From Patescibacteria group bacterium (GTDB lineage: Bacteria > Patescibacteriota > Minisyncoccia > Phycocordibacterales > UBA918): 36,294 nucleotides of DNA. The stretch spans positions 1-36,294 of the forward strand of contig WFTF01000031.1 of NCBI GenBank assembly GCA_015485575.1, in the 5' to 3' direction. The translations under genes and the position numbers were made by a program. A model generated the notes under the pieces. The model did not search any database. It was not told the DNA's origin and saw only the letters and a list, made by a program, of their open reading frames with translations. Shown here in pieces: positions 175 through 34,451 of this stretch; position 1 is the stretch's first letter; each line of letters starts with the position of its first letter.

Positions 175-834
175 CTATGTGGTCTGTTGTAGAACTATTT
201 CCCGTATCTCCACCAGTCTAGCATACACAATCAAGTTGTTGCTGTATCGCATTTTCCCCCTATCATACTTCCCCGAGCAGGTAATCAATCGCAAGCCTGC
301 ATACTCTATATCTCCATACACCTCTTCTGTGGGAAACGCATCTTGTGACGGAAATGACAATTTCTCAACTCTAAAAACAGCAGTGGAGCCATCGTCTCGC
401 ACTATAAAAATATCGTCTCCCGCCCGCACCTTGCGCAGATTCCATAGCACTGCCGGACCTTGGTATGAGTCCACATGTCCAAGCACCACTGCAGGACCCA
501 CCTCACCGGGGATTGGTCCGTACTTGTAGTATGCTACTGTTTGATATGAGCGCGGCACTTCAATTTCATTATTGCGCTGCAGTCCCAGTGGAGATTCAAA
601 CTCTGCATCAATATCCACTGAAGGAATATTGAGACGTACCGGTATGGGAGTACCGCTCATTGTCACATCTTGAGTAACATCAACTTCCAGAGGACCGATA
701 TCGGTAACATAAAAGGTGGACTGCACATACAAAAAGCGCATCATAAATAACGCACCAACGCTCATGCCCAACAGCCCAAACGCCAGCATGCGTAGATGCC
801 GGCGCAGGTTTCTGTACGTATATCCTCGTAACAT
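175..834 (-). CDS. sortase-family cysteine transpeptidase with one N-terminal TM anchor (class not assignable by eye)
   Basis: ORF 175-861. The sortase His/Cys/Arg contexts are visible: VVLGHVDSY, LRLITCSGKY (TLxTC-like) and NLIVYARL. The hydrophobic anchor is LAFGLLGMSVGALFMM. I placed the start at Met10 (834), 5 nt after the stop of the upstream substrate gene. The ATG at 861 would overlap that gene by 23 nt. Confidence 0.85.
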   Translation of the reverse strand: MLRGYTYRNLRRHLRMLAFGLLGMSVGALFMMRFLYVQSTFYVTDIGPLEVDVTQDVTMSGTPIPVRLNIPSVDIDAEFESPLGLQRNNEIEVPRSYQTVAYYKYGPIPGEVGPAVVLGHVDSYQGPAVLWNLRKVRAGDDIFIVRDDGSTAVFRVEKLSFPSQDAFPTEEVYGDIEYAGLRLITCSGKYDRGKMRYSNNLIVYARLVEIREIVLQQTT

Positions 835-838
835 GTCC

Positions 839-2299
839 TTACACTGATTTGCGTGTTGCAAAAATCACAACCAAACTCAAGAGTAGTATTGCCACCCAGA
901 AGAAAGCAAGATCACGTTGCGTTGTTGCTCCCCCAAAGCCGGTGTTGGGAGCGCCCGCAGGAACAATACTCACTTGCTCTCCCAAAACCCGTGGAATTGG
1001 TTGCGGTGTTTGCGGAGCGGCACCGCCTCCGCCAGCCTGTACTGTCGGTACATCACGATTTATCCTCCTTCCTTGTCCGCCTCCGGAACTTGCCTTGGTT
1101 TGCACTTTTACCGTACACACTGCGGTACTACCTGCATTGTCGGCGGTCAGTGTGTATGCACTACTCCCTTGTACTACGACCGTGGTCGTGCCTGATGTGG
1201 CAACGGTGCCAATTCCGTTGTCAATCGTCACCGTGTTCGCGTCAGCTGTACTCCAGGTGAGCATGACCGTATCACCAGGATTTACCACACTGCGGCTTGC
1301 GTCAAAAGTGCAACTTGGGGTTTGCGATACCGGTGCGGGTGCGCCAACAAATACATTACCGAAATTATAAGGACCCCCCGACACGGGAGTCTGTGCTTGT
1401 GCCACCTTTACAAACAGCGAGAGGGGGAAGAATGCCGCCAACGGCTGGTCAGTAAAATCATCCGGTACGGTGATTACATACGTAGTTGGTGTTGGATATA
1501 CCTGCTTCCACCCTTCTTCAAGTACCTCAGAGAGTGTCCATACACCCTCAGTCACCTCAAAAGAAAAGTATCCCGACGCATCGCTTTGTGTTTGGAGCGT
1601 AGTAGTTCCATTAACCAATTGCAGTTCCCATCCTTCCAAAAACTCCTCATCCTCATCTATCCGTCCGTTTTCATTTGCATCATGCCACACATAGCCGTCA
1701 ATCAAATACACCGGAGCCGGAACAGTATAGACACATGATCCATCGTCTTCTGTTGCCAACATGTCGTAATTGTCCGCTTCAACATCGGTGCACCCGTATA
1801 CCGGTGTCGGCGGAGGAGGTGTTAACGGACGCCACTGGTTGTTGGCGTCACACACATTTGCCGATGTGTCATCTGCAGTGACGGTCATAGTGGTGGACAT
1901 ACCGGTTGGTGTATTGTCACAACCGTATCCCGACCACTTTACCGTCCAGTCTGCAGGCACAAAACCCGGTGGCCCCATTTCCGTCAGTGTGTAATCACCC
2001 TCCGGCAACATAATGCTGCCCATAGCGGTATCGGGGGTAAAGGGGCTTAAGGTGACCAGCTCATCGTAGCCATTACCCACCACCGAAAACGAAAACTGAT
2101 CAGCAGTATAGCCGTCTGGTTGAATGTTGTCGCTTATGTTTTTTGTCAGTATAAACGCATAGGTACTGACGGTGTTTGTCGCGGTATCTTCAGCATACGC
2201 GTACGGCAAAAAGGAGAAAAACATCGCAAAAAAACTGACGCATACAAAAGCAGCAATACTCAGAACAACTATATTGAAACGTGGTATATCTAAAGTCAT
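839..2299 (-). CDS. secreted surface protein with a C-terminal sortase sorting signal (APNTG, TM helix, basic tail) and Ig-like/Cna-B-like domains
   Basis: Signal peptide ending FLPYAYA/EDTA. GDYTLTEMGPPGF is a Cna-B/SpaA-type motif. There is a Cys-bounded CTDVEADNYDMLATEDDGSC motif. IDGYVWHDANENGRIDEDEEFLEGW is an SdrD B-like repeat signature. The C-terminus is VPAGAPNTGFGGATTQRDLAFFWVAILLLSLVVIFATRKSV. Confidence 0.85.
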   Translation of the reverse strand: MTLDIPRFNIVVLSIAAFVCVSFFAMFFSFLPYAYAEDTATNTVSTYAFILTKNISDNIQPDGYTADQFSFSVVGNGYDELVTLSPFTPDTAMGSIMLPEGDYTLTEMGPPGFVPADWTVKWSGYGCDNTPTGMSTTMTVTADDTSANVCDANNQWRPLTPPPPTPVYGCTDVEADNYDMLATEDDGSCVYTVPAPVYLIDGYVWHDANENGRIDEDEEFLEGWELQLVNGTTTLQTQSDASGYFSFEVTEGVWTLSEVLEEGWKQVYPTPTTYVITVPDDFTDQPLAAFFPLSLFVKVAQAQTPVSGGPYNFGNVFVGAPAPVSQTPSCTFDASRSVVNPGDTVMLTWSTADANTVTIDNGIGTVATSGTTTVVVQGSSAYTLTADNAGSTAVCTVKVQTKASSGGGQGRRINRDVPTVQAGGGGAAPQTPQPIPRVLGEQVSIVPAGAPNTGFGGATTQRDLAFFWVAILLLSLVVIFATRKSV

Positions 2300-2427: not shown

Positions 2428-5400
2428 TTAGCGGAAAAAGCCAAACACCTTTTTAACAAATCCACCCAAGAAACCTTTTTTCTTCTGCGGAGCAGGCTTG
2501 TCTTCCGGTACTGTCTCCTGTTCCGGCTCAGGTTGTGACTCTTCCTGCTGTACCTCTTCCTGCAATGGTGACTTGGAAACAGCTGGTGCTGTCGGAGCAC
2601 TCACCACCTTTGGTTTGGTATACGGCACAACAGCCGGCGCGGGCGGTGTCACAGAAGTTGTCTGAGGTTTGGAGGTGGATACACCGGCAACACGCGGTGC
2701 GGCGTAACCCGCAAGTGTCAACGTGCGTACACGACTTGGCACCGTAAAGGTGTAGTCACCACCAAAGGCAATGTTCTCTTCATCGTTGGCGCGTATACGA
2801 TAGGTGTAGACGACCCCTTCTTGTAATCCCGTAATAATCATGAGATGTTTTGTTTTTTTATCTTGGAACATGAAGCTCTTTTGCGCATAGCCAAAGTTTG
2901 GTTTGGTTACGTTAAACGGTGTGGAAGTTGCCCCTCCATACAGAGGGCTGTAGTACACGCGAGCTGTAGACGAGGTAGACGTTTCCCATGTGACCAACGC
3001 CGAAATTTTACCGTCTGCTCCCGGGAAGTATGCCAACACACCCACATTTCCCACAGCAAGAGCCACTCCTTCAATCACAATGGTATGTACCGCATCATCC
3101 AGTTTCAGTGGTCTACCACCTTGCGCTTTGGTGGTGGAACTGCGGTATGCCTCTATACGGGCGGTGTTGGTGTAGCGACCGCTTGGTGTTTTGATATCGT
3201 ATGCGGTAGTGTAGCTGAGCGTAATCTCCTCCCCGGGGAGAATGGTGCCCAAGTCCCACGACTGCTCACTGATTACAGCACCGATTGGGTTACGCAATGT
3301 GTCATAGACGACCGCATCATACGCCGCACCACCTCCGTTGCGTACTTTAATGGTGTAGTCCACAAACTCGCCCGCCTTAATAATTCTGCTGCGGGGCACA
3401 TCCGCTTCCTTAGTAATGAATAACAGTGGTGCCGCGTCCGGATCAACCTCTTTGGTATACCTGTCTATACTTTTTGTTTTTGCACGACTACCACCTCCTC
3501 CACCTCCTCCGGAGTTGCCGGCGACAGGCGTTGTATTTGTGGCTTCTTCTGTGTCTTCTGTGCTATTCGGGTCCCGAGTGGCAGTATCATCCTGTGGCGT
3601 ATTGGAAACAGTGTTTGGATCTTCAAACACAAGCGTAAACGTCAAGAGTGACGAGTTGTCCGATTCGTTGTTGTCGCTTTCGTCGCTCTGAACTGACGCA
3701 ATGGCCATGACGGTACTGCTGCCATACGGCAGGTCATCGTTTACCACCGCTTGCAATGTATGTGTCACCGAAGCACCGGGTGCAATGGACCCCAGTGGTA
3801 CAGTTTGCTGCGTTGCGTTGTTACCGCCTCGTGCATTTTGCAGTGTCTGCCGCAAGGTAACATTTTGTGCGGGCGTATCACTGTTGTTGGTGATGGTGTA
3901 TTGGTATGAAACTAAGTCACCGGGTTGTAGTGCGGATACATCCTCAACAATGGTACCGGTCAGAGATAAATCCGTCTGTGCGAAGGTTACATTACCATCA
4001 AAGTCACCAAACACGTTGATAACTGCCAGCGTCCAGTTGGTACCGATCACGTTTGTGTTGACTATATTGAGTACGTTGGCACTTGCATAAGCGTCCCCCG
4101 TTTTAATGGAACCCACCAACCCATCAATGCTATTCTCACCGGTCACCGCGTCAATGGAAACGTCGTTGGTAACCGTTGCTGTATTCGTATCGGTGATATA
4201 TGCACTATAGGAATCAACATCGTACGGCAGCAGTGTGGACGGCACAATTTCTGCGTCTTCGTTGTAGATAAGAATACCGTCGGGAGTCCACTGCCATGTA
4301 AGTCCGTCCGGAAGCCCGATTACATCCCCACTCCAAACGCCGTGCACGCGTATGAGCAAGTAAAAAGAGTCCCCTCCGTAGATGTTGGTGTTGACCCTGT
4401 TTACCACATTTGACTCCGACTCACCGGCTCCGGTTTGGATGTCGGAATCAAACTGAGTAGTGGCAGTATTGAGCCCCGTTTCAGCATAGGTTTCCAGATT
4501 ATTTTCCACCACCCCGTCGTTGCTATTGTTGATGGAAATGGTCACCTCCTCCGCGTTTTCGGTCTGTGTCATACCATTTGGACGTCCGAAAAATGCCTTG
4601 AACAACTCTTCGGTAGGCAGCATGAGATCACCAGATAGGTCACCCATGGCGTTTAAAGCAAGCAGGCGATAGTTGGAGTCTATGATATTTGCATTTACGA
4701 CATTGATTATATTCGCCCCACCGTATGCATTGCCCGTTTCAATACTTGCGTAATCACCCTCTGCCGTATTTTCTCCGGTTATCGCTTTTATGGTCGCGGT
4801 GTTGGTCACAACCGCATCGTTATCTTGGGACAAATTATAGATAATGTCTTCGGACATGCAGGAAAGTAGAGTACAATCGTCTGCCAATGCTTTTGTTTGC
4901 TCGGGGTTCGGGAAAAAGAAGTTACGCAAGTCCAAGGACTCTCCGGGTACCACCTCAGTATTCCTCAAATAGAGAAAGCCATCCGAGTTCACTATGTTGG
5001 AATTGACAACATTTGCAACGTTCAAGGCGGAAAAGGCGTCCCCTGTGTATATTTCAGAGGCACTGGTAGAAAGAGCGGTATTGTCACCGGTATTGGAAAG
5101 AATAGTACCCGAGGTATCCACCACTGCCTCATTCGTACCTGTTGCACTAAATGTATAGGTATCCAAGTCTCTGTTGGGATCGCCGGTATTGATACTTTTG
5201 AGATTGCTTGCGTTTACGTCGGTATCAACCTCTCCTTTAGCTTGCGCATCGCCGGTATCTATTCGTGTATTGCGACCGGTGCGAGCAATACCTCCCGTAC
5301 TGTCTTCCGGATTGTCCTCAACGGCACTGTCTCCTATATCGTTTTCGGTTTTGACCGGCAATGGACTTTTACTCGGAGCTTCTCCATCTGCTCCCGGGCT

Positions 5401-6009
5401 ACCCGTTGTGCCCTGTGTGCCATCGGAACCGGCTTCCTTTTTGGTTCCATCTTCCCCAGTGTCACCTTCCCCTGTTACAGGCGTACTACTTGCTGTTTGT
5501 GCCGTGCTACTTGCGGTCTGCCCATCGGCGGCATCACCCTGCCCGTTGCTACCATCTGAGCCGACATCCGTACTAGGTGCAGTGCTACCGTCTGTACCAC
5601 TATCCGTATCCCCTCCAGGCATCCCATTGTCAGATGTGCTCGCGGTGTCACTGTCAGAGGCAGTTGTGACGGGTGTATCAGTATCGCCAGTGCCGGTGTC
5701 TGTGTTTGTATTTTGTATGTCATTCTGCTGTTGCGTTGTCGGCACATCTTGGGCTGTACTACTTGCGCTGGTGTCCGCATGAGACTCTTGCGTATCCTCT
5801 TCGTTTGGTGATGTGTCAGGGGAGCCATCGTTCAATGCAGAGGTGGTGGCATCAGTGGAGCTGGCGGTCGTGGGAGCAGTATCTGTCGTCGTATCGTTCT
5901 GGGCAAAAGCAAGCTGCGGAGGTTGTGTGGAGAAAACCAAAACCACCATTACCATGACGCTGACTGTTGCGCGTGCAATGTGTGTTACTTTAGAGTGAAA
6001 TACCCACAT
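2428..6009 (-). CDS. giant (1193 aa) secreted multidomain surface protein
   Basis: Signal peptide VMVMVVLVFSTQPPQLAFA/QND, then ~200 aa of T/S/D/G-rich low complexity and five TG..TGDA modules (aa ~241-656). Two DUF11/CARDB-like domains follow (LVSYQYTITNNSDTPAQNVTL and FVDYTIKVRNGGGAAYDAVVYDTL). After a poly-Gly linker (GGGGGGG) comes an FN3-like domain (VVYTYRIRANDEENIAFGGDYTFTV), then a Pro-rich linker and a basic amphipathic tail KKKGFLGGFVKKVFGFFR. This is the longest ORF in the window, with many spurious antisense ORFs inside it. Confidence 0.9.
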   Translation of the reverse strand: MWVFHSKVTHIARATVSVMVMVVLVFSTQPPQLAFAQNDTTTDTAPTTASSTDATTSALNDGSPDTSPNEEDTQESHADTSASSTAQDVPTTQQQNDIQNTNTDTGTGDTDTPVTTASDSDTASTSDNGMPGGDTDSGTDGSTAPSTDVGSDGSNGQGDAADGQTASSTAQTASSTPVTGEGDTGEDGTKKEAGSDGTQGTTGSPGADGEAPSKSPLPVKTENDIGDSAVEDNPEDSTGGIARTGRNTRIDTGDAQAKGEVDTDVNASNLKSINTGDPNRDLDTYTFSATGTNEAVVDTSGTILSNTGDNTALSTSASEIYTGDAFSALNVANVVNSNIVNSDGFLYLRNTEVVPGESLDLRNFFFPNPEQTKALADDCTLLSCMSEDIIYNLSQDNDAVVTNTATIKAITGENTAEGDYASIETGNAYGGANIINVVNANIIDSNYRLLALNAMGDLSGDLMLPTEELFKAFFGRPNGMTQTENAEEVTISINNSNDGVVENNLETYAETGLNTATTQFDSDIQTGAGESESNVVNRVNTNIYGGDSFYLLIRVHGVWSGDVIGLPDGLTWQWTPDGILIYNEDAEIVPSTLLPYDVDSYSAYITDTNTATVTNDVSIDAVTGENSIDGLVGSIKTGDAYASANVLNIVNTNVIGTNWTLAVINVFGDFDGNVTFAQTDLSLTGTIVEDVSALQPGDLVSYQYTITNNSDTPAQNVTLRQTLQNARGGNNATQQTVPLGSIAPGASVTHTLQAVVNDDLPYGSSTVMAIASVQSDESDNNESDNSSLLTFTLVFEDPNTVSNTPQDDTATRDPNSTEDTEEATNTTPVAGNSGGGGGGGSRAKTKSIDRYTKEVDPDAAPLLFITKEADVPRSRIIKAGEFVDYTIKVRNGGGAAYDAVVYDTLRNPIGAVISEQSWDLGTILPGEEITLSYTTAYDIKTPSGRYTNTARIEAYRSSTTKAQGGRPLKLDDAVHTIVIEGVALAVGNVGVLAYFPGADGKISALVTWETSTSSTARVYYSPLYGGATSTPFNVTKPNFGYAQKSFMFQDKKTKHLMIITGLQEGVVYTYRIRANDEENIAFGGDYTFTVPSRVRTLTLAGYAAPRVAGVSTSKPQTTSVTPPAPAVVPYTKPKVVSAPTAPAVSKSPLQEEVQQEESQPEPEQETVPEDKPAPQKKKGFLGGFVKKVFGFFR
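4042..5289 (-). repeat. five protein-level copies of the bipartite module TG-x-N-[ST] ... TG-[DN]-A-x-[AS]-x-[AS]-N-[VI]-x-N-x-VN-x-N-[IV] inside the 1193-aa gene
   Basis: ARTGRNTRIDTGDAQAKGEVDTDVNASNL; SNTGDNTALSTSASEIYTGDAFSALNVANVVNSNIV; AITGENTAEGDYASIETGNAYGGANIINVVNANII; AETGLNTATTQFDSDIQTGAGESESNVVNRVNTNIY; AVTGENSIDGLVGSIKTGDAYASANVLNIVNTNVI. Confidence 0.8.
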
Positions 6010-6520
6010 AGGAAGTTAAAATTAAACGAATAGAATAAAGAGCTTGTATGATCTCACGAAAACGTACAAGTGCCTCCTGGCTTTCAGTAATGTCCTCCAC
6101 ATTCGCGACTCCCCGTACCGCCTGAGACTGCGGAAGCGATGTGGTCGCACCGCTGAGGGGCCGCATACTGTCCCACGCTGCCTCTGTACTACTGCTGAAC
6201 GTACTGATCAGTACACTTGCATCGTCAGTGGTGCCACCTACATACTTACGCGACACGGCATCTCCCATGCGCACCACAGAAAACCCACCGCTTGCTCCCG
6301 ACACACCGTCTGCACCGTCCGTCCCGCGTGCACCGTTGCGAGCACTACTCACTTCAACAGCAGACTTGCCTCCCGTAGTGACCGTATTGGTGATGATTGT
6401 CACCGTGGACACACGGTCGGTTGCTACTGCGGAGTCGGACGCGAAAACTAAATTCACTGTACTAAAAGCAAACATAAAGACAATTGACATTGGTAGTACT
6501 TTGTCGTGTATCAAGTGCAT
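5990..6520 (-). CDS. small secreted protein, a weak paralogue of the neighbouring Gly-rich protein
   Basis: ORF 5990-6553. The Met at 6520 gives MHLIHDKVLPMSIVFMFAFSTVNLVFA/SDS, a plausible signal peptide (alternative start 6490). The ATG at 6553 lies inside a conserved upstream hairpin. TTGGKSAVEVSSARNGARGTDGADGVSGASGG...RMGDAVS resembles the SNTGGNTSRGARGGRGG...TGEAVS layout of the 366-aa protein. The 3' end overlaps the start of the 1193-aa gene by 20 nt. Confidence 0.6.
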   Translation of the reverse strand: MHLIHDKVLPMSIVFMFAFSTVNLVFASDSAVATDRVSTVTIITNTVTTGGKSAVEVSSARNGARGTDGADGVSGASGGFSVVRMGDAVSRKYVGGTTDDASVLISTFSSSTEAAWDSMRPLSGATTSLPQSQAVRGVANVEDITESQEALVRFREIIQALYSIRLILTSYVGISL

Positions 6521-6643
6521 ACCCTCTTCGTAAAGTCTGGAACCCACTTCCAAACCTTACGGGAAGGTTCCTCGGTGCGACATACCGAGAAACATAATCC
6601 CGTACATTGGCGCGTCCTGCGCGCTCAATGCGACGTCAGTGTA

Positions 6644-7744
6644 TTAGCGACGTACCACACGTGTAACGTTGCGGTTTACCACATTGGTTACCTCGCTCCA
6701 AGCATCTGCACGTCCGGTGCGTACGGTTCCACCGTCACCACCGTCACCTGCGTTCCCTCCTGAAGCTCCGGTACCGGTATTACCACCAGCTCCGGCGTCA
6801 CCGCTGTCACCGCCGGCACCACCCTCTCCGGTTGTGCCGCCATGACCGCCGTTGCCGCCATTGCCGCCGTTTTGTGCGGCGTCAGAACCGTCAACGTCAC
6901 CATTGGCGTTACCTCCGTCTCCGGCATCACCGCCGTCGCCGGCACCTTGGGTGTCACCGCCCGGTGCGACGTTCACACTGGAACCGCCGTCACCTGCATC
7001 GTCGCCACCGTCGCCGCCATTGCCGCCGCGTCCGCCGTCATCACCTTCTGATTCGTTATCTCCGGTGTTTGCACCTGACGCGACAAGGGTACCCACTTCA
7101 GCACCATTTGCATTTGCAACAACGGCTTCGGTTTCGTCAAGATCCGCGTCTCCCGCGTCACGAACAACGGTAGTTTCGTTGTTGTTTACGTCGTTAGACA
7201 CTTTTGCGGTTGAAACGGCCTCGCCGGTTTCAATGGTTCCACCATCGCCACCGTCGCCGGCATCACCACCGTGACCACCAGCGCCGGTACTACCGCCGGC
7301 ACCTCCTGTTCCGGAGTCACCGCCGTCTCCGCCGTCGCCGGTGTTACCACCGCGTCCGCCGGTACCACCGTTGCCGGCACTTTGTGTACCGTCAACTTCA
7401 TCGTTACCGACTGATCGAGCGTTCCCACCATCGCCACCATAGCCGCCGTCACCGGCTCCTTGAGTGCTGCCTCCTGGTGCGAAGTTCACGCTTGAACCAC
7501 CATCACCTGCGTGGTCTCCACCGTCGCCGCCATTACCGCCGCGTCCGCCGCGGGCACCGCGGGAGGTGTTACCACCGGTGTTAGACTCTGAAACAGCTGC
7601 GGTTATAACAACAGCGCTGTTTTCATTGACAACCAGTACTGAGTCATCTTCATGTGCCGCTGCCGGTAGTGCAAAAAATGCAAACGCCATGGCAGGCAAT
7701 AAAGCAACTGCGGTTGTCTTTTGTATTGTTGTAATTGTCTTCAT
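6644..7744 (-). CDS. secreted Gly/Asp/Asn-rich repeat protein (366 aa)
   Basis: Signal peptide AVALLPAMAFAFFALPAAA/HEDD. Two ~158-aa units are each built from runs of GGDGG/GGNGG/GGRGG/GGTGG/GGAGG, flanked by NTG-x-N-x-S and x-TG-x-A...V-x-N-x-VN-x-N half-modules. The coding strand is strongly G-rich, which creates many spurious overlapping ORFs in other frames. Confidence 0.8.
   Translation of the reverse strand: MKTITTIQKTTAVALLPAMAFAFFALPAAAHEDDSVLVVNENSAVVITAAVSESNTGGNTSRGARGGRGGNGGDGGDHAGDGGSSVNFAPGGSTQGAGDGGYGGDGGNARSVGNDEVDGTQSAGNGGTGGRGGNTGDGGDGGDSGTGGAGGSTGAGGHGGDAGDGGDGGTIETGEAVSTAKVSNDVNNNETTVVRDAGDADLDETEAVVANANGAEVGTLVASGANTGDNESEGDDGGRGGNGGDGGDDAGDGGSSVNVAPGGDTQGAGDGGDAGDGGNANGDVDGSDAAQNGGNGGNGGHGGTTGEGGAGGDSGDAGAGGNTGTGASGGNAGDGGDGGTVRTGRADAWSEVTNVVNRNVTRVVRR
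6653..7636 (-). repeat. internal tandem duplication of the 366-aa gene (units about 7163-7636 and 6653-7126)
   Basis: GGRGGNGGDGGDHAGDGGSSVNFAPGGSTQGAGDGGYGGDGGNA aligns with GGRGGNGGDGGDDAGDGGSSVNVAPGGDTQGAGDGGDAGDGGNA. The DNA copies are clearly related but diverged, e.g. 7441-7560 against 6931-7050. Confidence 0.75.
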
Positions 7745-8103: not shown

Positions 8104-8171
8104 ATTCTATGCCCGCTTGCGCAATTGTCAACAAAAACCGTGCAGTATAATACATTGGCTTTTATTGTCAA
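8104..8171 (-). promoter_or_regulatory. two tandem near-consensus sigma70 promoters: P1 TTGACA-N16-TATACT and P2 TTGACA-N16-TAGAAT
   Basis: Read on the reverse strand. P1 has -35 at 8171-8166 and -10 at 8149-8144. P2 has -35 at 8131-8126 and -10 at 8109-8104. This is the same TTGACA-N16 architecture as the groES promoter in this window. Both point toward the 366-aa gene, whose ATG is at 7744. Confidence 0.5.
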
Positions 8172-8423: not shown

Positions 8424-9350
8424 CTAGAAGTGCATCCGTTTCACTGCAGCGATCTCACCGCACACTCCGCTGCTGTCAGTATCAGTACCCGTAACACCGT
8501 ACACTTCCCTCTCTATCCCCTTTACACGTTCCGCTGCTTCCTTATGTGTATACATACGTCCAATAAATAGCTGACGCTGTTTTTTCATCTCTTGCACATC
8601 TACGTCAGACCCAAACAGCCACGGAAACACGCCGCAGGCATAAAAGATATTTTCAACCATATTGGTGGTGGTTCCAAGTATGCGCACCCGCTTCCCTGAT
8701 AGCAGCAGATCCAGATCCGAACCCGATAATTCGGTGGTGTTCACCTGCCACAGATCTTGCTTGTTCTCGGTACGTACATACACAAAAGTGTCATCCTCGC
8801 CGGCATCTTGCAGACGGCCCAGTAAGCGACCTTCCTCCGGTTGCTGCCATATTTTTTCTTCAAACTCTTCATATGATTCATACATCGGCACTATTTTTGT
8901 GATACCAACATCAATCAAATAACCGACTTTGAAGAAGTGCAGCACAACGCCTCCCACAACACTTAAAACAATACTGCTAAAAATAATACCGCCCATTGAA
9001 TACAGGTATCCTCGTTTGGTACGCCGGACGTTAATATACGCAAGCACTATCATGCTCACAAACAGCGTGAGCCAAAGTGTCGGCAGTATCTCTAGAACAA
9101 AATCCACAACGCGATCATGAGTTGCTTCATACAGTGCGAATCGCGCATAGTTTCCCACATATAATATAACCGCAAGTGCAAGAGCACCCAGTACAACCGT
9201 ACTCAACCACGCCACCCAAATGCTATATTCAACACAAATAAACCACCACTTACTTGCCGGCTGCACCTGCTCTGTACGAATGCGCTTCATCACTCGCTGT
9301 GCGAGCGTGCTGCTTGGCTTATTTTCTGTTGTTTGTATGTCTTTATGCAT
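8424..9350 (-). CDS. polytopic membrane protein immediately downstream of the ECF sigma gene; candidate anti-sigma factor by position only
   Basis: There is a 13-nt gap to the sigma stop codon. An N-terminal ~35 polar residues (AQRVMKRIRTEQVQP) are followed by about four hydrophobic helices and then a ~150-aa acidic soluble domain. No HxxxCxxC zinc anti-sigma motif is visible. Confidence 0.75.
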   Translation of the reverse strand: MHKDIQTTENKPSSTLAQRVMKRIRTEQVQPASKWWFICVEYSIWVAWLSTVVLGALALAVILYVGNYARFALYEATHDRVVDFVLEILPTLWLTLFVSMIVLAYINVRRTKRGYLYSMGGIIFSSIVLSVVGGVVLHFFKVGYLIDVGITKIVPMYESYEEFEEKIWQQPEEGRLLGRLQDAGEDDTFVYVRTENKQDLWQVNTTELSGSDLDLLLSGKRVRILGTTTNMVENIFYACGVFPWLFGSDVDVQEMKKQRQLFIGRMYTHKEAAERVKGIEREVYGVTGTDTDSSGVCGEIAAVKRMHF

Positions 9351-9363
9351 AACCTACTACTTA

Positions 9364-9942
9364 CTATATGTGTACTTGTGTATCGTCTATCAGCTTTTTC
9401 AAACGCTGTTTTCCGCGATAAATGCGCGTCCCCACCGATCCTATGGGGATCTTTAATATGTCCGATATTTCCTCATACTCCTTATGTTCAAAATAACGAA
9501 GGACAAGCACATCGTAGTATTTGCGCTCCAATTGAGAGAGTGCTTGCGCCAATATCTCTGCATTCCGCCGCTTATCAAAACGCAGCTCCGAACTGTCTTC
9601 TTTTGCCATCTCGCGCAGCAAATGTTCATCACCCTCATCAATCAAGTGTCCCTCAGGGCGTACCTGTTTCTTCCTATAAAAAGAAATGGCTTCGTTGTGC
9701 GCAATACGATAAATCCAAGAGGAGAAAGAAAGAGTGGTGTCAAAGGCGTTCAGATTACGATACACTTTGAAAAAAATTTCCTGCAACACATCCTGAGCAT
9801 CTTCATGATTGCGTATTCCTAAACGGCGCACATACCGAAACAATTTCTCCTCGTAGCGCATCACAATGTGCTGAAAAAACGACTGGTCACGCAATACCAT
9901 TGACACTATTTCTTCGTCACTCATAGAAGTGGGGTGTGACAT
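9364..9942 (-). CDS. ECF-type (group 4) sigma-70 family RNA polymerase sigma factor
   Basis: Region 2 motifs are LQEIFFKVYRNLNAFD and SWIYRIAHNEAISFYRKK. The region 4 HTH is VLVLRYFEHKEYEEISDILKIPIGSVGTRIYRGKQRLKKL. At ~190 aa it has no region 1.1 or 3. An alternative start is Met7 at 9924. Confidence 0.92.
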   Translation of the reverse strand: MSHPTSMSDEEIVSMVLRDQSFFQHIVMRYEEKLFRYVRRLGIRNHEDAQDVLQEIFFKVYRNLNAFDTTLSFSSWIYRIAHNEAISFYRKKQVRPEGHLIDEGDEHLLREMAKEDSSELRFDKRRNAEILAQALSQLERKYYDVLVLRYFEHKEYEEISDILKIPIGSVGTRIYRGKQRLKKLIDDTQVHI

Positions 9943-10014: not shown

Positions 10015-10557
10015 ATGTACCACAAACATATTTCATACATCATTATCGGATTCTTTATATCCGTGTTGCTGGCAACACCGCTTTCAACCTACGCATACTA
10101 CACAACCGCTCAAAATGCGATACGCCTTACAGACAACATCGCTCTCTATACCATAGACTTCACCTTTGGTTTTCCCGACCGAGATGTATATATCCCCATT
10201 GCCACCAAACGGGACATAGAAAATAACCCGCAGAACCCATATATGGGATACACCTTTTACACCAGTACAGGTGGAGACCCGACTGTCGGTACTGCAGCGG
10301 GATTGGTACTCAGTAGCGCAGACATAGAGAACAACATGTATAAAGTACCCGCAGGTGAACGTGGATACTTCACTCTGGTGGTGTTTCTCACTCTGGATCC
10401 GGAAGCGGACCCGAAAGCAAAATATGGGCTGCAGGTAAGCAATCTCCCATTCATCACACAAGAAGGAAACACGATTCAACGCTTTGGACTAAACAAGCAC
10501 GAACTCCAAGCATATAAAACCAAAAAGGTCGGACTGTTACCTCAAAAACGTCTGTAG
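10015..10557 (+). CDS. secreted hypothetical protein (180 aa)
   Basis: Signal peptide IIIGFFISVLLATPLSTYA/YYT. Clean ORF ending at a convergent terminator. No recognisable domain. Confidence 0.7.
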   Translation: MYHKHISYIIIGFFISVLLATPLSTYAYYTTAQNAIRLTDNIALYTIDFTFGFPDRDVYIPIATKRDIENNPQNPYMGYTFYTSTGGDPTVGTAAGLVLSSADIENNMYKVPAGERGYFTLVVFLTLDPEADPKAKYGLQVSNLPFITQEGNTIQRFGLNKHELQAYKTKKVGLLPQKRL

Positions 10558-32578: not shown

Positions 32579-33694
32579 CTAGGACACTAATTTTTTATGC
32601 AGTTGCAGTAACATGGCACCCAGGGTCGCGCTACAGAGTGCGATTACAAGCAAAGCACCCAGTACAGGTATTGCTAAAATACTCAGAAGCAGCAAGGTCC
32701 CCACTATCACGGTAGATAAACTCACCGTAGCATCCTTGCGAAATACGCGCAGAAGAAAGACGCCGGATATCATTGCCGCATATGCGAAACTCAGGAGATA
32801 CAGCGCGAACAGCAGTGCAAAAACAGCCAACCCCAACCAAAAGCCCAACACCGTAATCATTAACAGAACAGACACAAACGGGCCGAAGAAAAGTACGGCT
32901 AGTCCAAGTGCGATACTCTTGCCTGAATGTCTCTCCAACATGGAAATGACACTCACGGTAAAACGGCGGCTTACCATATAGAGTACCAAAGTGGTAAACA
33001 ACATCACAAAAATCGGAGTTAAAATCTGCCGATACAGTTCTTTTTGTGAAATGGGTTCGGTCTGCTGCTTGGTAATTTCTCCTTCAACAATAGCCTGAGG
33101 GCTGCGCGATAACTCGGTCAAACTGGTATACCGTATATTTCCGGATACTCGCGCATCTTCGGTGAGAACCATACCCGCAGCTGCGGTTACCACCACATCT
33201 TTTGCAACCAAGCCACCGATAGTCAAATACTCCATCTTTCCATATACAGATCCGGCGACCTCACCCTCAATGGTAACCGACCCTCCAAATACAAAGACAT
33301 CACCCGCCACCGTTGCAGTGGACAAAATACGTACCTCACCTCCAAATATAAAGACATCACCTCCGACACTATCAGCAATCGTTACTTCCCCACCTACAAT
33401 GCGGACATCATCTCCCACAGGAGCATGTATCTGAGCGGTGCCGGCAAGAATGGAAACGTCTGTCCCCACCTCACCGTTCACCGTTACAGACGCACCCAGT
33501 GCGTACATATCTTGTGCAACAGAACCGGACATGACCGTTGTACCAAACGGCCCCACCGACACATAGTAATCTCCGGCAACCAACTGATCAGCATCCACCG
33601 ACACATCGTTGCCACTGCGCAAGACTGTTTCAGCGTACACACCTACAGGGAGAGTGACTGCCAGCAAGGTACTTAGTGCGATAATGTATTTCAT
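32579..33694 (-). CDS. exported bactofilin-like beta-helix repeat protein with a polytopic C-terminal membrane domain
   Basis: I placed the start at MKYIIALSTLLAVTLPVGVYA/ETV (33694), which removes the overlap with the upstream gene. Repeats include VGDDVRIVGGEVTI, VGGDVFIFGGEVRI and VAGDVFVFGGSVTIEGEV. About five TM helices follow. Confidence 0.8.
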   Translation of the reverse strand: MKYIIALSTLLAVTLPVGVYAETVLRSGNDVSVDADQLVAGDYYVSVGPFGTTVMSGSVAQDMYALGASVTVNGEVGTDVSILAGTAQIHAPVGDDVRIVGGEVTIADSVGGDVFIFGGEVRILSTATVAGDVFVFGGSVTIEGEVAGSVYGKMEYLTIGGLVAKDVVVTAAAGMVLTEDARVSGNIRYTSLTELSRSPQAIVEGEITKQQTEPISQKELYRQILTPIFVMLFTTLVLYMVSRRFTVSVISMLERHSGKSIALGLAVLFFGPFVSVLLMITVLGFWLGLAVFALLFALYLLSFAYAAMISGVFLLRVFRKDATVSLSTVIVGTLLLLSILAIPVLGALLVIALCSATLGAMLLQLHKKLVS

Positions 33695-33704
33695 AGTGAT
33701 AGTG

Positions 33705-34451
33705 TTAGGCTTGTGAATTTGAGGAATGGTGCGCATGCTCTTCCATAACCGCAGCAATTGCCTCCTCTTCTTTTTGTCGTTTTTCCTCTTCTTTTTGTAT
33801 GGTCGATTGTGCAATGTTTTGTTTCTCGTGCAAGTTCATAAGAGAAAAAGTAATCATTGCCGCCAATAGAATACCAAGGAAATTCAACAAAAGCATGTTA
33901 AATGATCCTGCAATAACAGTCATATCAAACATGGCAATACCCGCACCGAGTACCGCAAGCGGTGGAATCAATGCGACAGAGATGGCAATTCCCGGCAAGG
34001 TCTCACTCCACTCGGGCTGTGCAAGGGCAAATGACACCGCCGCTCCCGCTATAAAGGCGACAAAAAAATATATGGGAGAAGGATCTAAGCGTATGAGCAT
34101 CTGATTGGTCACAAAGCCATCTCCAAACAAGAGAGTTGCCAGTATTGCCAATACCAATCCAATGGTAACCGACTTGGTCAATGTAACAGTGGAGCGACGC
34201 AATACCTTTGCGTTTGACATAACCAAACCTAGGGCGATTCCCAAAATGGGATATAAAATGGGAGCAATGAGCATACTTCCGATCACCACAGAAGGGCTGT
34301 CAGCAAGCAACCCGAGTGTCGCCATAAGTACGGACAGGCCTATTAAGTAGAAAAAGTCAAAATTTGGTGTACTGCTCTGCATCAGCTTGCGTACCACCGC
34401 AGCTTTATCTTTCTCTTCAATAGCGCGAAAACGTGCGAAAAAGGAAGGCAT
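33705..34451 (-). CDS. DUF389-family hydrophobic membrane protein
   Basis: VVIGSMLIAPILYPILGIALGLVMSNAKVLRRS matches the DUF389/TIGR00341 core as I recall it. It has multiple TM helices and an acidic/basic C-tail. Confidence 0.75.
   Translation of the reverse strand: MPSFFARFRAIEEKDKAAVVRKLMQSSTPNFDFFYLIGLSVLMATLGLLADSPSVVIGSMLIAPILYPILGIALGLVMSNAKVLRRSTVTLTKSVTIGLVLAILATLLFGDGFVTNQMLIRLDPSPIYFFVAFIAGAAVSFALAQPEWSETLPGIAISVALIPPLAVLGAGIAMFDMTVIAGSFNMLLLNFLGILLAAMITFSLMNLHEKQNIAQSTIQKEEEKRQKEEEAIAAVMEEHAHHSSNSQA

What the first reader, a model, noticed from the sequence alone, without database searches (positions are those of the whole stretch)
4042..7636. Unnamed bipartite TG..TGDA-N-x2-N-x-VN-x-N module shared by consecutive secreted proteins
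The 1193-aa protein carries five copies of a two-part motif: TG-x-N-[ST], then 3-10 residues, then [IV]-x-TG-[DN]-A-x-[AS]-x-[AS]-N-[VI]-x-N-x-V-N-x-N-[IV]. An example is AVTGENSIDGLVGSIKTGDAYASANVLNIVNTNVI. The 366-aa protein upstream has the same two halves twice: SNTGGNTS...IETGEAVSTAKVSNDVNNNE and ANTGDNES...VRTGRADAWSEVTNVVNRNV. The 187-aa ORF between them has a weak version (TTGGKS...RMGDAVS). Three adjacent genes therefore look like one family built on a module I cannot map to any named domain. The alternating small and Asn residues suggest a beta-solenoid or stacked-strand fold. This is the best candidate in the window for an undescribed structural surface component.
Basis: partly seen in the sequence, partly recalled or inferred. 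Interest (0 to 1): 0.8.

Follow-up and report, generated by a model that had tools for sequence, protein, structure and literature searches.

The report
Unnamed beta-repeat in CPR surface proteins
Two neighbouring secreted proteins of an ultra-small (Parcubacteria-type) bacterium share a roughly 105-residue all-beta repeat that no database names, and thousands of proteins in these bacteria carry it in a conserved gene cluster, so it is a good candidate for an undescribed cell-surface structure.

Summary
The motif is real. A profile built only from homologues in other organisms finds four full copies and one partial copy in the 1193-aa protein (196 bits). It finds both halves, twice, in the 366-aa protein (30.6 bits; best of 1000 shuffles 7.3). 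Profile-profile comparison of the two families gives 99% probability. The 187-aa ORF scores at shuffle level, although other genomes have a genuine one-module gene at that position. In the 366-aa protein, ~100-residue glycine-rich insertions split each unit. Pfam, NCBIfam and PDB sequences have no match to the module. AlphaFold2 predicts a confident all-beta array (pLDDT 92, pTM 0.85). Foldseek matches only the C-terminal DUF11/CLIPPER Ig domain. The long strands do not look like a classical solenoid. The module occurs in 3391 protein clusters, all traceable to Microgenomates or Parcubacteria. In 58 of 65 loci a smaller paralogue lies directly upstream of the large gene. My best reading is a lineage-specific head domain on a stalked, C-terminally anchored surface protein that co-assembles with small secreted paralogues. 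Whether it is an adhesin or an envelope layer is open. It is a new domain family within a known kind of system. Interest is moderate to high.

The parts
6644..7744 (-). P366: 366-aa secreted protein with two split module units and a conserved C-terminus ...VVNRNVTRVVRR
   Evidence: ORF. [quoted passage not shown] The family consensus shows two units ending in NVTRIxR.
7550..7642 (-). P366 unit 1, first half (aa 35-65: long strand ending ...SESNTGGNTS)
   Evidence: HMM positions 1-24 match aa 42-65. AF2 predicts a strand at aa 35-55 with pLDDT 71-87.
7247..7549 (-). Gly-rich insertion 1 (aa 66-166) between the TGxN strand and the TGDA strand
   Evidence: hhalign treats it as an insertion relative to the P1193 family. 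AF2 pLDDT is below 50. It contains the conserved island AGDGGSSVNFAPGGSTQGAGDGG.
7160..7246 (-). P366 unit 1, second half (aa 167-195: GGTIETGEAVSTAKVSNDVNNNETTVV)
   Evidence: HMM positions 25-48 match aa 167-190 at 17.6 bits. AF2 predicts strands at aa 176-186 and 189-195 with pLDDT 74-91.
7034..7129 (-). P366 unit 2, first half (aa 206-237, ...ASGANTGDNES)
   Evidence: HMM positions 1-25 match aa 213-237. AF2 predicts a strand at aa 206-226.
6737..7033 (-). Gly-rich insertion 2 (aa 238-336)
   Evidence: It aligns in register with insertion 1.
6647..6736 (-). P366 unit 2, second half and conserved C-terminus (aa 337-366, GGTVRTGRADAWSEVTNVVNRNVTRVVRR)
   Evidence: HMM match at aa 327-362. 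AF2 predicts strands at aa 346-356 and 359-365 with pLDDT 73-90. The family consensus is VxNVVNRNxTRIxR.
5990..6553 (-). P187: 187-aa ORF (an internal Met gives a signal-peptide-like MSIVFMFAFSTVNLVFA). It sits where other Parcubacteria-type loci have a one-module small protein. Its family membership is not demonstrated.
   Evidence: Searches are negative. Positional analogues in other loci do carry a real module. Similarity to the N-terminal extension of P0001 is weak (E 0.001).
2428..6009 (-). P1193: large surface protein. Order: signal peptide, low-complexity region, module array, 2 x DUF11/CLIPPER, FN3-like region, Pro/Thr linker, amphipathic tail.
5902..6009 (-). Signal-peptide-like N-terminus of P1193 (aa 1-36, ...VMVMVVLVFSTQPPQLAFA)
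   Evidence: Read directly from the sequence. Homologues have the same kind of N-terminus.
5317..5901 (-). Thr/Ser/Asp/Gly-rich low-complexity region (aa 37-231)
   Evidence: Sequence. No domain hit. Its length varies among homologues.
5191..5289 (-). Partial unit 0 (aa 241-273, IARTGRNTRIDTGDAQAKGEVDTDVNASN): second half of a module only
   Evidence: HMM positions 23-47 match at 10.8 bits. AF2 predicts strands at aa 242-251 and 255-265.
4954..5166 (-). Unit 1 (aa 282-352)
   Evidence: HMM 48.1 bits at aa 293-346. AF2 predicts strands at aa 282-306, 311-321, 325-335, 338-340 and 343-352.
4624..4854 (-). Unit 2 (aa 386-462), preceded by the conserved Cys pair DDCTLLSC (aa 377-384)
   Evidence: HMM 55.4 bits. 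Strands. The CxxxxC pair is conserved in the family.
4300..4548 (-). Unit 3 (aa 488-570; its turn reads TGAG instead of TGDA)
   Evidence: HMM 48.7 bits.
3976..4212 (-). Unit 4 (aa 600-678), ending in NVFGDFDGNVTFA
   Evidence: HMM 61.2 bits.
3649..3972 (-). DUF11 / CLIPPER domain 1 (aa 680-787)
   Evidence: Pfam PF01345 at E 4.3e-14, aa 680-787. Foldseek matches to 9IFR (CLIPPER) and to CARDB domains.
3154..3453 (-). DUF11 / CLIPPER domain 2 (about aa 853-952; coordinates approximate)
   Evidence: Pfam and TIGR01451 each report two matched stretches. The family alignment shows a second conserved Ig-like block. Position taken.
2431..2487 (-). C-terminal Lys- and Phe-rich amphipathic tail QKKKGFLGGFVKKVFGFFR (putative anchor)
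   Evidence: Sequence. Similar tails occur in other Parcubacteria-type family members and in the small one-module proteins.
839..2299 (-). P486: SdrD_B/SpaA-like secreted protein ending in ...GAPNTGFGG + hydrophobic stretch + RKSV. It is a likely sortase substrate and carries no module.
   Evidence: The same gene order is found in L001, L047 and L119.
175..861 (-). Class F-like sortase (228 aa)
   Evidence: Pfam Sortase at E 1.8e-17. NCBIfam class_F_sortase at 158.2 bits, below the 166-bit cut-off.

Best explanation
The TGxN...TGDA motif is the conserved core of a ~105-residue all-beta repeat unit that has not been described and appears specific to CPR bacteria (Microgenomates and Parcubacteria). 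Four to five units pack into one rigid domain of about 450 residues.

In P1193 this domain is the membrane-distal head of a Sec-exported surface protein. Two CLIPPER/DUF11 Ig-like stalk domains and a Pro/Thr-rich linker hold the head away from the cell. A short C-terminal amphipathic tail tethers the protein; homologues use a transmembrane helix with a basic tail, or a peptidoglycan-binding domain.

P366 is a small secreted paralogue with only two units and no anchor. Each unit carries a ~100-residue Gly-rich loop at the one position of the unit that tolerates insertions. P366 most likely docks onto the large protein or onto copies of itself through unit-to-unit beta-sheet contacts. The operon would then build a two- or three-component surface assembly, used to contact other cells or surfaces or to organise the outer envelope.

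Shown: the homology, the repeat anatomy, the absence of any named family, the lineage distribution and the conserved gene adjacency.
Predicted: the fold.
Inferred: export, anchoring, co-assembly and the adhesive or structural role.
For: The repeat is real and shared by the two proteins.

The unit has a median spacing of 105 residues. Its conserved positions are N1, A3, N7, A13, T15, G16, N18, T31, G32, A34, N42, N45, N47, N59, G62 and G66. Of 250 proteins, 167 have exactly four full units, so this is a fixed architecture and not a variable tandem array.

AF2 gives pLDDT 92.0 and pTM 0.85, and all five models score 88.6-92.0. The same strand pattern is predicted for the P366 units at pLDDT 70-90.

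The module has no Pfam, NCBIfam or PDB match. Foldseek aligns only 94-170 columns, all to Ig-like/CLIPPER/CARDB folds.

The module profile finds 3391 cluster representatives (873 at E<=1e-30), typically 750-1100 aa with five stretches.

All 120 genome loci recovered carry module genes. Every independently named record is Microgenomates or Parcubacteria.

In 58 of 65 loci a same-strand module gene lies directly upstream of the large gene. The closest relatives L001 and L002 both have a P366-type gene upstream.

CLIPPER/DUF11 is a characterised isopeptide-stabilised stalk domain of fibrillar adhesins (PMC12617251).

Homologues end in a TM helix plus basic tail, and two carry PG_binding_1. In a Daviesbacteria locus the three paralogues are, in order, unanchored, TM-anchored and LPISG-sorted.

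A sortase and an SdrD_B/SpaA-like substrate are adjacent here and in L001, L047 and L119.
Against: There is no experimental or expression evidence. No ligand-binding signature was found.

Co-assembly rests only on adjacency and shared fold. No multimer prediction was possible.

The low-complexity region lies at the N-terminus, distal to the head, which is unusual for a simple stalk model.

P1193 has no LPXTG motif or TM helix, so its own anchoring is uncertain.

The conserved sequence and fixed unit number across a very deep radiation fit a core structural role at least as well as an adhesin role, because adhesin heads usually diversify quickly.

AF2 tends to be over-confident on repetitive beta sequences, and I could not inspect the coordinates.
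Confidence: 0.55

Rival explanations
1. The paralogues are the subunits of the S-layer-like outer envelope lattice of Microgenomates and Parcubacteria cells. The anchored large subunit and one or two small subunits would tile the surface through homotypic unit contacts, comparable in logic to two-component archaeal S-layers.
For: The family is very widespread, and its architecture and operon are conserved across both superphyla. Anchored and unanchored paralogues occur together. The head domain is predicted to be rigid. Two promoter-like sites matching 11 of 12 consensus positions lie upstream of P366. [quoted passage not shown] 2015) reported a surface layer whose protein has not been identified. 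Two-component S-layers are an established precedent (PMC10903991, listed).
Against: No abundance data are available. No lattice-forming evidence exists. Copy number per genome and presence across complete genomes were not measured. The sortase and SpaA-like neighbours and the CLIPPER stalk are more typical of adhesins or fibres. The promoter scan as a whole was not enriched over shuffles.
Confidence: 0.18
2. The module proteins are components (tip or base) of a sortase-assembled pilus or fibre whose shaft is the neighbouring SpaA/SdrD_B-like protein.
For: A class F-like sortase and a SpaA/SdrD_B-like protein with an APNTG-type sorting signal lie immediately downstream. The same order occurs in L001, L047 and L119. 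The third paralogue in L035 ends in LPISG plus a TM helix and a basic tail. Sortase is enriched in CPR (PMC6744442).
Against: P1193 and P366 have no LPXTG-like motif and no recognisable pilin motif. A sortase was seen in only 8 of the 8-kb loci, although the short windows limit that count. The module genes travel together even where no sortase is in view.
Confidence: 0.1
3. P366-type proteins are secreted functional-amyloid subunits of the curli kind, with Asn and Gly ladders in strand-turn-strand repeats. The anchored large paralogue would act as the nucleator, as CsgB does for CsgA.
For: There is a superficial resemblance: paralogous secreted proteins, imperfect strand-turn-strand repeats and a G-x-N-x-A turn reminiscent of the curlin G-N-x-A. 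One paralogue is anchored and one is free.
Against: hhalign of the module profile against E. coli CsgA gives probability 0.1%. Pfam Curlin_rpt gives no hit. The unit has ~105 residues with a 21-25-residue strand, against ~22 residues in curlin. AF2 predicts a globular multi-unit domain, not a cross-beta stack. The only amyloid Foldseek hit had E 9.9.
Confidence: 0.03
4. The pattern is a compositional artefact of Asn/Thr/Gly-rich low-complexity sequence and not a homologous module.
For: The region is rich in T, N, D, A and G. P366 is largely Gly-rich.
Against: Real scores far exceed composition-preserving global and local shuffles. The halves match in the correct order and register. Positions are conserved across thousands of proteins. 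The structure prediction is confident.
Confidence: 0.01

Closest known systems
Fibrillar adhesins with CLIPPER (DUF11, PF01345) stalks (PMC12617251; PDB 9IFR; survey in PMC9210967)
   Same: Both have a signal peptide, an N-terminal non-stalk head domain, tandem CLIPPER Ig-like stalk domains and a C-terminal tether. Both sit next to a sortase and SpaA-like genes.
   Different: The head is an unnamed four-to-five-unit beta array, not a known adhesive domain. Only two stalk domains are present. There is no LPXTG motif. The protein is always accompanied by small paralogues made of the same unit. The unit number is fixed and conserved across a deep radiation.
Curli system CsgA/CsgB (Curlin_rpt, PF07012)
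   Same: Both involve paralogous secreted proteins built from imperfect strand-turn-strand repeats with conserved Asn and Gly. In both, one partner is cell-associated and one is free.
   Different: No sequence relationship was found (hhalign 0.1%). The unit is five times longer. The predicted fold is a folded domain, not a cross-beta fibre. No csgEFG-like secretion genes are present.
Beta-solenoid and Ca2+-dependent beta-roll repeats of large adhesins (RTX GGxGxD; the xGTGND repeats of the Marinomonas ice-binding adhesin). This comparison is recalled from my own knowledge.
   Same: Both have short TG-x-N / TGD turns, alternating small and Asn residues and an all-beta prediction.
   Different: No Pfam hit to HemolysinCabind or to any solenoid family. 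The strands of 21-25 and 11 residues are much longer than solenoid rungs. No solenoid appeared among the Foldseek matches.
Two-component S-layers such as Sulfolobus SlaA/SlaB (PMC10903991)
   Same: Both pair an anchored stalk-bearing subunit with an unanchored partner encoded next to it. Both are lineage-wide.
   Different: No sequence or fold relationship was tested or found. Lattice formation is not shown. The partners here are paralogues of each other.
Glycine-rich repeat proteins (Pfam GRP; mycobacterial PGRS)
   Same: The P366 insertions are (GGX)n-like, and a few family members give weak GRP or PGRS hits.
   Different: Those hits are low-complexity matches (best E 0.002) and do not touch the module. 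The insertions contain a conserved non-Gly island.

Membership tests
Any Pfam-A / NCBIfam family covering the module | Significant profile-HMM match over P1193 aa 230-680 or over P366 | tested here: not met
   Searches gave no hit at E<=1. Scans of 85 P366-family members and 18 P1193-family members gave only Ig-like C-terminal families and low-complexity GRP/PGRS hits.
DUF11 / CLIPPER (PF01345) | Profile match above the gathering score; Ig-like CnaA-type fold | tested here: met
   P1193 aa 680-787 scores 53.2 bits against a 24.6-bit cut-off, with two stretches. Foldseek's top hit is 9IFR, a CLIPPER domain. This applies to the C-terminal stalk only, not to the module.
DUF11 / CLIPPER (PF01345) | Intramolecular Lys-Asn/Asp isopeptide triad | not tested
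   The residues were not mapped. PMC12617251 notes that some DUF11 domains lack the bond.
Curli subunits (Curlin_rpt) | Sequence similarity to the S-x5-Q-x-G-x-G-N-x-A-x3-Q repeat | tested here: not met
   hhalign of the module profile against CsgA gives probability 0.1%. No Pfam hit.
Beta-solenoid / beta-helix repeat proteins | Regular rungs of about 18-30 residues made of short strands; structural similarity to known solenoids | tested here: inconclusive
   AF2 secondary structure shows 21-25-residue strands and a ~105-residue period. No solenoid appeared among the Foldseek matches. Coordinates could not be inspected, and the listed matches of the large model were all to its C-terminal Ig domain, which may have outranked any match to the module array.
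RTX / hemolysin-type Ca2+-binding repeats | GGxGxD nonapeptide profile match | tested here: not met
   No HemolysinCabind hit for P366, P1193 or 85 family members.
Fibrillar adhesins (operational definition: stalk repeats + adhesive domain + anchor) | Tandem stalk domains | tested here: met
   Two CLIPPER stretches. DUF7507/CLIPPER_2 is present in 11 of 18 homologues.
Fibrillar adhesins (operational definition: stalk repeats + adhesive domain + anchor) | Recognised adhesive domain | tested here: not met
   The head domain matches no known adhesive family. Whether it binds anything cannot be tested here.
Fibrillar adhesins (operational definition: stalk repeats + adhesive domain + anchor) | Cell-surface anchor | tested here: inconclusive
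   P1193 ends in an amphipathic tail and has neither LPXTG nor a TM helix. Of 223 large family members, 96 end in a TM-like segment, and two carry PG_binding_1.
Sortase (LPXTG-type) substrates | C-terminal LPXTG-like motif + hydrophobic segment + basic tail | tested here: not met
   Absent from P1193 and P366. Present in the neighbouring P486 (APNTG...RKSV) and in the third paralogue of L035 (LPISG).
S-layer proteins | Self-assembly into a 2-D lattice; very high abundance; in some lineages SLH or other wall-binding modules | not testable with these tools
   No SLH hit. Lattice formation and abundance need experiments or omics data.
One-module small proteins found between the small and large module genes in Parcubacteria-type loci (alignment A5); tested for P187 | Signal peptide, one module (hhalign A5 vs module profile: 96%, E 1.7e-9) and a C-terminal amphipathic Phe-rich tail | tested here: not met
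   P187 sits at the right position and has a signal-peptide-like start, but it scores at shuffle level.

The most novel reading that the evidence does not exclude
The operon encodes the so-far unidentified building blocks of the outer protein layer of Microgenomates and Parcubacteria cells. This would be a heteromeric lattice of one anchored large subunit and one or two small paralogues, all made of a fold with no solved relative. The Gly-rich loops of the small subunit would form the exposed, host-facing surface.
Probability: 0.15. Interest if true: 0.85.

Novelty: new variant of a known kind. Interest (0 to 1): 0.62.

Why it matters
CPR/Patescibacteria make up a large share of bacterial diversity and are thought to live attached to other cells. 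Beyond type IV pili, almost nothing is known about the proteins on their surface. This work defines a domain family of 3391 clusters at 50% identity with a confident predicted fold that has no solved relative. The family sits in a conserved two- to three-gene operon across both major environmental CPR superphyla. That gives a concrete target for Pfam curation, structural work, metaproteomic look-ups and genetics in the few cultivable systems. If the assembly proves to be the envelope layer or the host-contact device, it would bear directly on how these cells attach and survive.

Tried and rejected
1. The search for homologous proteins with the 56-column module alignment found only 130 word-sharing candidates and none passed. 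That search was wasted. The exhaustive representative search replaced it.

I used a degenerate DNA pattern for [IV]xTG[DN]Ax4Nx2NxVNxN instead.

I used A3.

4. Curli homology was tested and rejected.

5. Membership of P187 was tested four ways, all negative. blastp of P187 against all loci found nothing.

6. Occurrence outside CPR was rejected on current evidence. Records labelled 'uncultured Gammaproteobacteria/Pseudomonadales' carry proteins 29-67% identical (all but two at least 39%) to Levyi-, Woese-, Davies-, Shapiro- or Roizmanbacteria ones. Nearly all show the Microgenomates two- or three-gene layout. Records labelled 'uncultured Saccharibacteria' are 35-73% identical to Kaiserbacteria or other Parcubacteria proteins. 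I treat those labels as unreliable and claim neither group. The 'Bacteroidetes' and 'Brevinema' hits are on 3.5-4.7 kb contigs of MAGs and are probably binning contaminants.

7. Foldseek of the low-confidence P366 model gave nothing usable.

8. Six completed literature searches found no description of the module. The Saccharibacteria Tn-seq paper and the methanogen-parasite paper do not mention it. Luef et al. 2015 is not in the library.

9. The upstream ECF sigma factor is not conserved next to the operon in L001, so I did not build it into the model.

Full report
WHAT IS IN THE WINDOW

Five co-oriented genes lie on the minus strand:
- P366 (7744..6644)
- P187 (6553..5990, overlapping the next start by 20 nt)
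- P1193 (6009..2428)
- P486, a 486-aa protein (2299..839)
- a 228-aa sortase (861..175)

Pfam and NCBIfam recognise only three things. P1193 has two DUF11 stretches, the best at aa 680-787. P486 gives weak SdrD_B/SpaA hits. The sortase is class F-like at 158 bits, below the 166-bit cut-off. Nothing matches P1193 aa 1-680, P366 or P187.

The rest of the window is chromosomal housekeeping: BipA, GroEL, RNase J and an ECF-type sigma factor. The closest homologues are from Paceibacterota and Kaiserbacteria MAGs. [quoted passage not shown]

CHECK OF THE OBSERVATION

For an independent test I extracted 277 modules from the 105 homologues of P1193 and built an HMM of 56 positions. None of those proteins is the window protein; the best is 62% identical. 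The HMM scores P1193 at 195.8 bits. That comes from four full-length matches of 48-61 bits and one half match at aa 244-268.

The same HMM contains no P366-type sequence. It matches its first half at P366 aa 42-65 and its second half at aa 167-190. It matches again at aa 213-237 and 327-362, for 30.6 bits. The best of 1000 global shuffles scores 3.2 bits and the best of 1000 local shuffles 7.3.

Profile-profile comparison of the P366 family (85 sequences) with the P1193 family (99 sequences) gives probability 99% and E 2e-18. Two consecutive modules align, and the Gly-rich stretches are treated as insertions. The central observation is confirmed: P366 and P1193 are built on one homologous module.

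THE 187-aa ORF

P187 scores at shuffle level against the module HMM. It reaches 5% probability against the P366 family.

There is a conserved gene at this position elsewhere. Many Parcubacteria-type loci have a 140-260-aa gene between the small and the large module genes. Seven of these align into a family, A5, with a signal peptide, one module and a Phe-rich amphipathic C-terminus. A5 matches the module profile at 96% probability, E 1.7e-9.

P187 has a signal-peptide-like internal start and strings that look right. Even so, it scores -0.1 bits against A5, and half of the shuffles do as well. hhalign gives 3.7%. Similarity to the equivalent stretch in the closest relative is marginal (E 0.001 over 62 residues).

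THE REAL REPEAT UNIT

Across 250 family proteins the median start-to-start spacing of modules is 105 residues, and 167 proteins have exactly four full units. The unit consensus is:

N.A.v.Nnv.v.A.TG.N.As.NgGda.I.TGDA.A.ANvvN.VNTNivgsn.fl..iNiFGdW.Gdi.lP

The N-x-FG-[DN]-W-x-G-[DN]...P segment was missed. Cys pairs are conserved between units (CxxxxC here at aa 377-384; CGC or CC in other members). The P366 family always has two units, Gly-rich insertions of variable length at the same loop, and a conserved C-terminus VNRNVTRIRR.

STRUCTURE PREDICTION

AlphaFold2 was run on P1193 aa 230-800 with the 99-sequence alignment. It gives mean pLDDT 92.0 and pTM 0.85, and all five models score 88.6-92.0.

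Each unit is predicted as follows:
- a 23-25-residue strand
- the TGxN turn
- an 11-residue strand
- the TGD turn
- an 11-residue strand
- the NxN turn
- strands of 3 and 10 residues
- a partly helical connector

The P366 model is poor overall (pLDDT 59) because the Gly-rich insertions score below 50. Its unit strands score 70-90 and show the same pattern.

Foldseek of the large model against PDB and BFVD returns only matches of 94-170 columns among those with E<=1e-3. All are to Ig-like domains (CLIPPER 9IFR, CARDB, integrin thigh-like domains and similar) and correspond to the DUF11 part. The P366 model matches nothing. PDB sequence searches with the family and module profiles are empty.

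The long strands and the ~105-residue period do not look like a classical solenoid. I could not inspect coordinates, so the topology remains open.

DISTRIBUTION AND SYNTENY

The module profile finds 3391 representatives of 50%-identity clusters at E<=1e-3, and 873 at E<=1e-30. Most are 750-1100 aa with five matched stretches. The ten I looked up are all named 'hypothetical' or 'TIGR01451 repeat protein'.

Every one of those loci contains module ORFs. The independently named records are:
- Microgenomates lineages: Curtiss-, Roizman-, Levy-, Woese-, Gottesman-, Davies- and Shapirobacteria
- Parcubacteria lineages: Kaiser-, Zambryski-, Taylor-, Moran-, Adler-, Nealson-, Giovannoni- and Yonathbacteria, plus Minisyncoccia

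Bulk-submitted MAGs labelled Gammaproteobacteria or Saccharibacteria carry proteins 29-73% identical to those lineages. Nearly all show the corresponding gene layouts. I regard those labels as unreliable.

Synteny is strong. In 58 of 65 loci with enough upstream sequence, a same-strand module gene lies directly upstream of the large gene. In 26 of 54 loci another lies downstream. Two layouts recur:
- Microgenomates: about 440 aa (four units, unanchored), then about 750 aa (TM-anchored), then about 400 aa (three units; LPISG sorting signal in L035).
- Parcubacteria: a P366-type gene, often a one-module gene, then an 800-1300-aa gene. In L001, L047 and L119 an SdrD_B-like gene and a sortase follow, as in the window.

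HOW IT MOST LIKELY WORKS

Read directly from the sequence:
- All four structural proteins begin with signal-peptide-like segments.
- P1193 continues with a 195-residue Thr/Ser/Asp/Gly-rich region, the module array, two CLIPPER domains, an FN3-like region, a Pro/Thr linker and the tail KKKGFLGGFVKKVFGFFR.

From established knowledge: CLIPPER/DUF11 is an isopeptide-stabilised stalk domain of fibrillar adhesins (PMC12617251).

My inference is that the module array is a rigid head displayed on a short stalk and tethered by the C-terminus. The anchorless small paralogues would associate with it, or polymerise on it, through unit-to-unit contacts. Their Gly-rich loops emerge from the single insertion-tolerant loop of the unit.

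The function is either contact with other cells or surfaces, or organisation of the outer envelope. I put about 0.55 on this general model, which leaves the adhesive-versus-structural role open, and 0.18 on the specific S-layer-like reading as a rival. A sortase-pilus role gets 0.1, a curli-like amyloid 0.03 and a compositional artefact 0.01.

COMPARISON WITH WHAT IS KNOWN

The overall architecture is that of a fibrillar adhesin. The stalk criterion is met. The recognised adhesive-domain criterion is not met. The anchor criterion is inconclusive.

The head domain belongs to no described family. Curli, RTX and glycine-rich families were tested and rejected or shown to be only compositional matches.

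Méheust et al. 2019 reported 106 CPR-enriched, mostly unannotated families and enrichment of sortase (PMC6744442). This family may be among those anonymous clusters. I found no paper that describes the module, its fold or the operon.

VERDICT

It is a new domain family with a conserved paralogue operon, inside a known kind of system (Gram-positive-type surface proteins). I therefore rate it 'new variant of a known kind'. Interest is 0.62. The family is not mechanistically surprising yet, but it is a well-defined, widespread and experimentally tractable unknown on the surface of a poorly understood bacterial radiation.

LIMITS

- No coordinates were available for the models.
- No multimer prediction could be run.
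- No HHpred-type search against Pfam or ECOD profiles was possible.
- No expression data were available.
- The genome scan was truncated at 120 loci.
- The loci are only 8 kb long, so sortase linkage is under-counted.

Noticed in passing
window 2431-2487 (-); also P0334, P0326, P0321, P0289 and the A5 proteins from L078, L029, L054, L073, L075: P1193 ends in a Lys/Phe-rich amphipathic tail, KKKGFLGGFVKKVFGFFR. Very similar tails end other Parcubacteria-type large module proteins (for example GGLGGIVTSAVRGVFGLFR). They also end the small one-module proteins (IFKYVFSLFKF, FFKNLFSIFRI). This may be a shared anchoring or sorting signal that no model describes.
   Followed up: partly
window 7247-7549 and 6737-7033 (-); L001 6705-7766: The Gly-rich insertions of P366 are not random low complexity. 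Both carry GGRGGNGGDGGD[HD]AGDGGSSVN[FV]APGG[SD]TQGAGDGG in register, and the Paceibacterota homologue in L001 has the same island. AF2 gives them pLDDT below 50.
   Followed up: partly
L035 (Daviesbacteria), three ORFs at 2647-7563 in reverse-strand coordinates; many other Microgenomates loci: Microgenomates have a three-gene version. The first gene is an unanchored four-unit protein whose units are each preceded by (I/L)(S/T)GNGSDSDN. The second is a TM-anchored large protein with an 'NLAW' motif before the helix. The third is a three-unit protein ending in LPISG + TM + basic tail, a sortase-type signal.
   Followed up: partly
L013, L015, L017, L021 and others ('uncultured Gammaproteobacteria/Pseudomonadales'); L008, L020, L040 and others ('uncultured Candidatus Saccharibacteria'): Bulk-submitted TPA MAG records carry taxon labels that disagree with their content. 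Their module proteins are 29-73% identical to Microgenomates or Parcubacteria proteins (all but two at least 35%), and nearly all share the corresponding gene layouts. The labels look like placeholders.
   Followed up: yes
L001 7700-8480 and 10301-11251: The closest relative looks frameshifted or mis-called in three ways. The conserved C-terminus NIVNRNMTRVVRR of its P366-type gene is out of frame. The P187-like stretch is fused in frame to the large gene. The large gene stops inside unit 4, and the CLIPPER part is called as a separate 306-aa gene.
   Followed up: partly
window 8104-8171 (-), 8424-9350 (-), 9364-9942 (-): Two sigma-70-like promoter matches (11 of 12 positions each) lie in the 680-bp gap upstream of P366. 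Further upstream on the same strand are a 308-aa multi-pass membrane protein with no Pfam hit and an ECF-type sigma factor. This pairing is not seen next to the operon in L001.
   Followed up: partly
window 839-2299 (-): P486 ends in VPAGAPNTGFGG + hydrophobic stretch + RKSV, a non-canonical APNTG sorting signal next to a class F-like sortase. NCBIfam gives only a weak hit to the GVDTG_CTERM sorting domain (E 0.42).
   Followed up: no
P1193 aa 377-384 (window 4858-4881, -); family alignments A1 and A3: Cys pairs are conserved between repeat units (CxxxxC in the large proteins; CGC or CC in the small ones). They suggest inter-unit disulfides, which fits the CPR-enriched MdbA-like oxidoreductase reported by Méheust et al. 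2019.
   Followed up: no
window 10015-10557 (+) and 32579-33814 (-): A 180-aa ORF with a signal-peptide-like start and a 411-aa ORF have no Pfam match.
   Followed up: no
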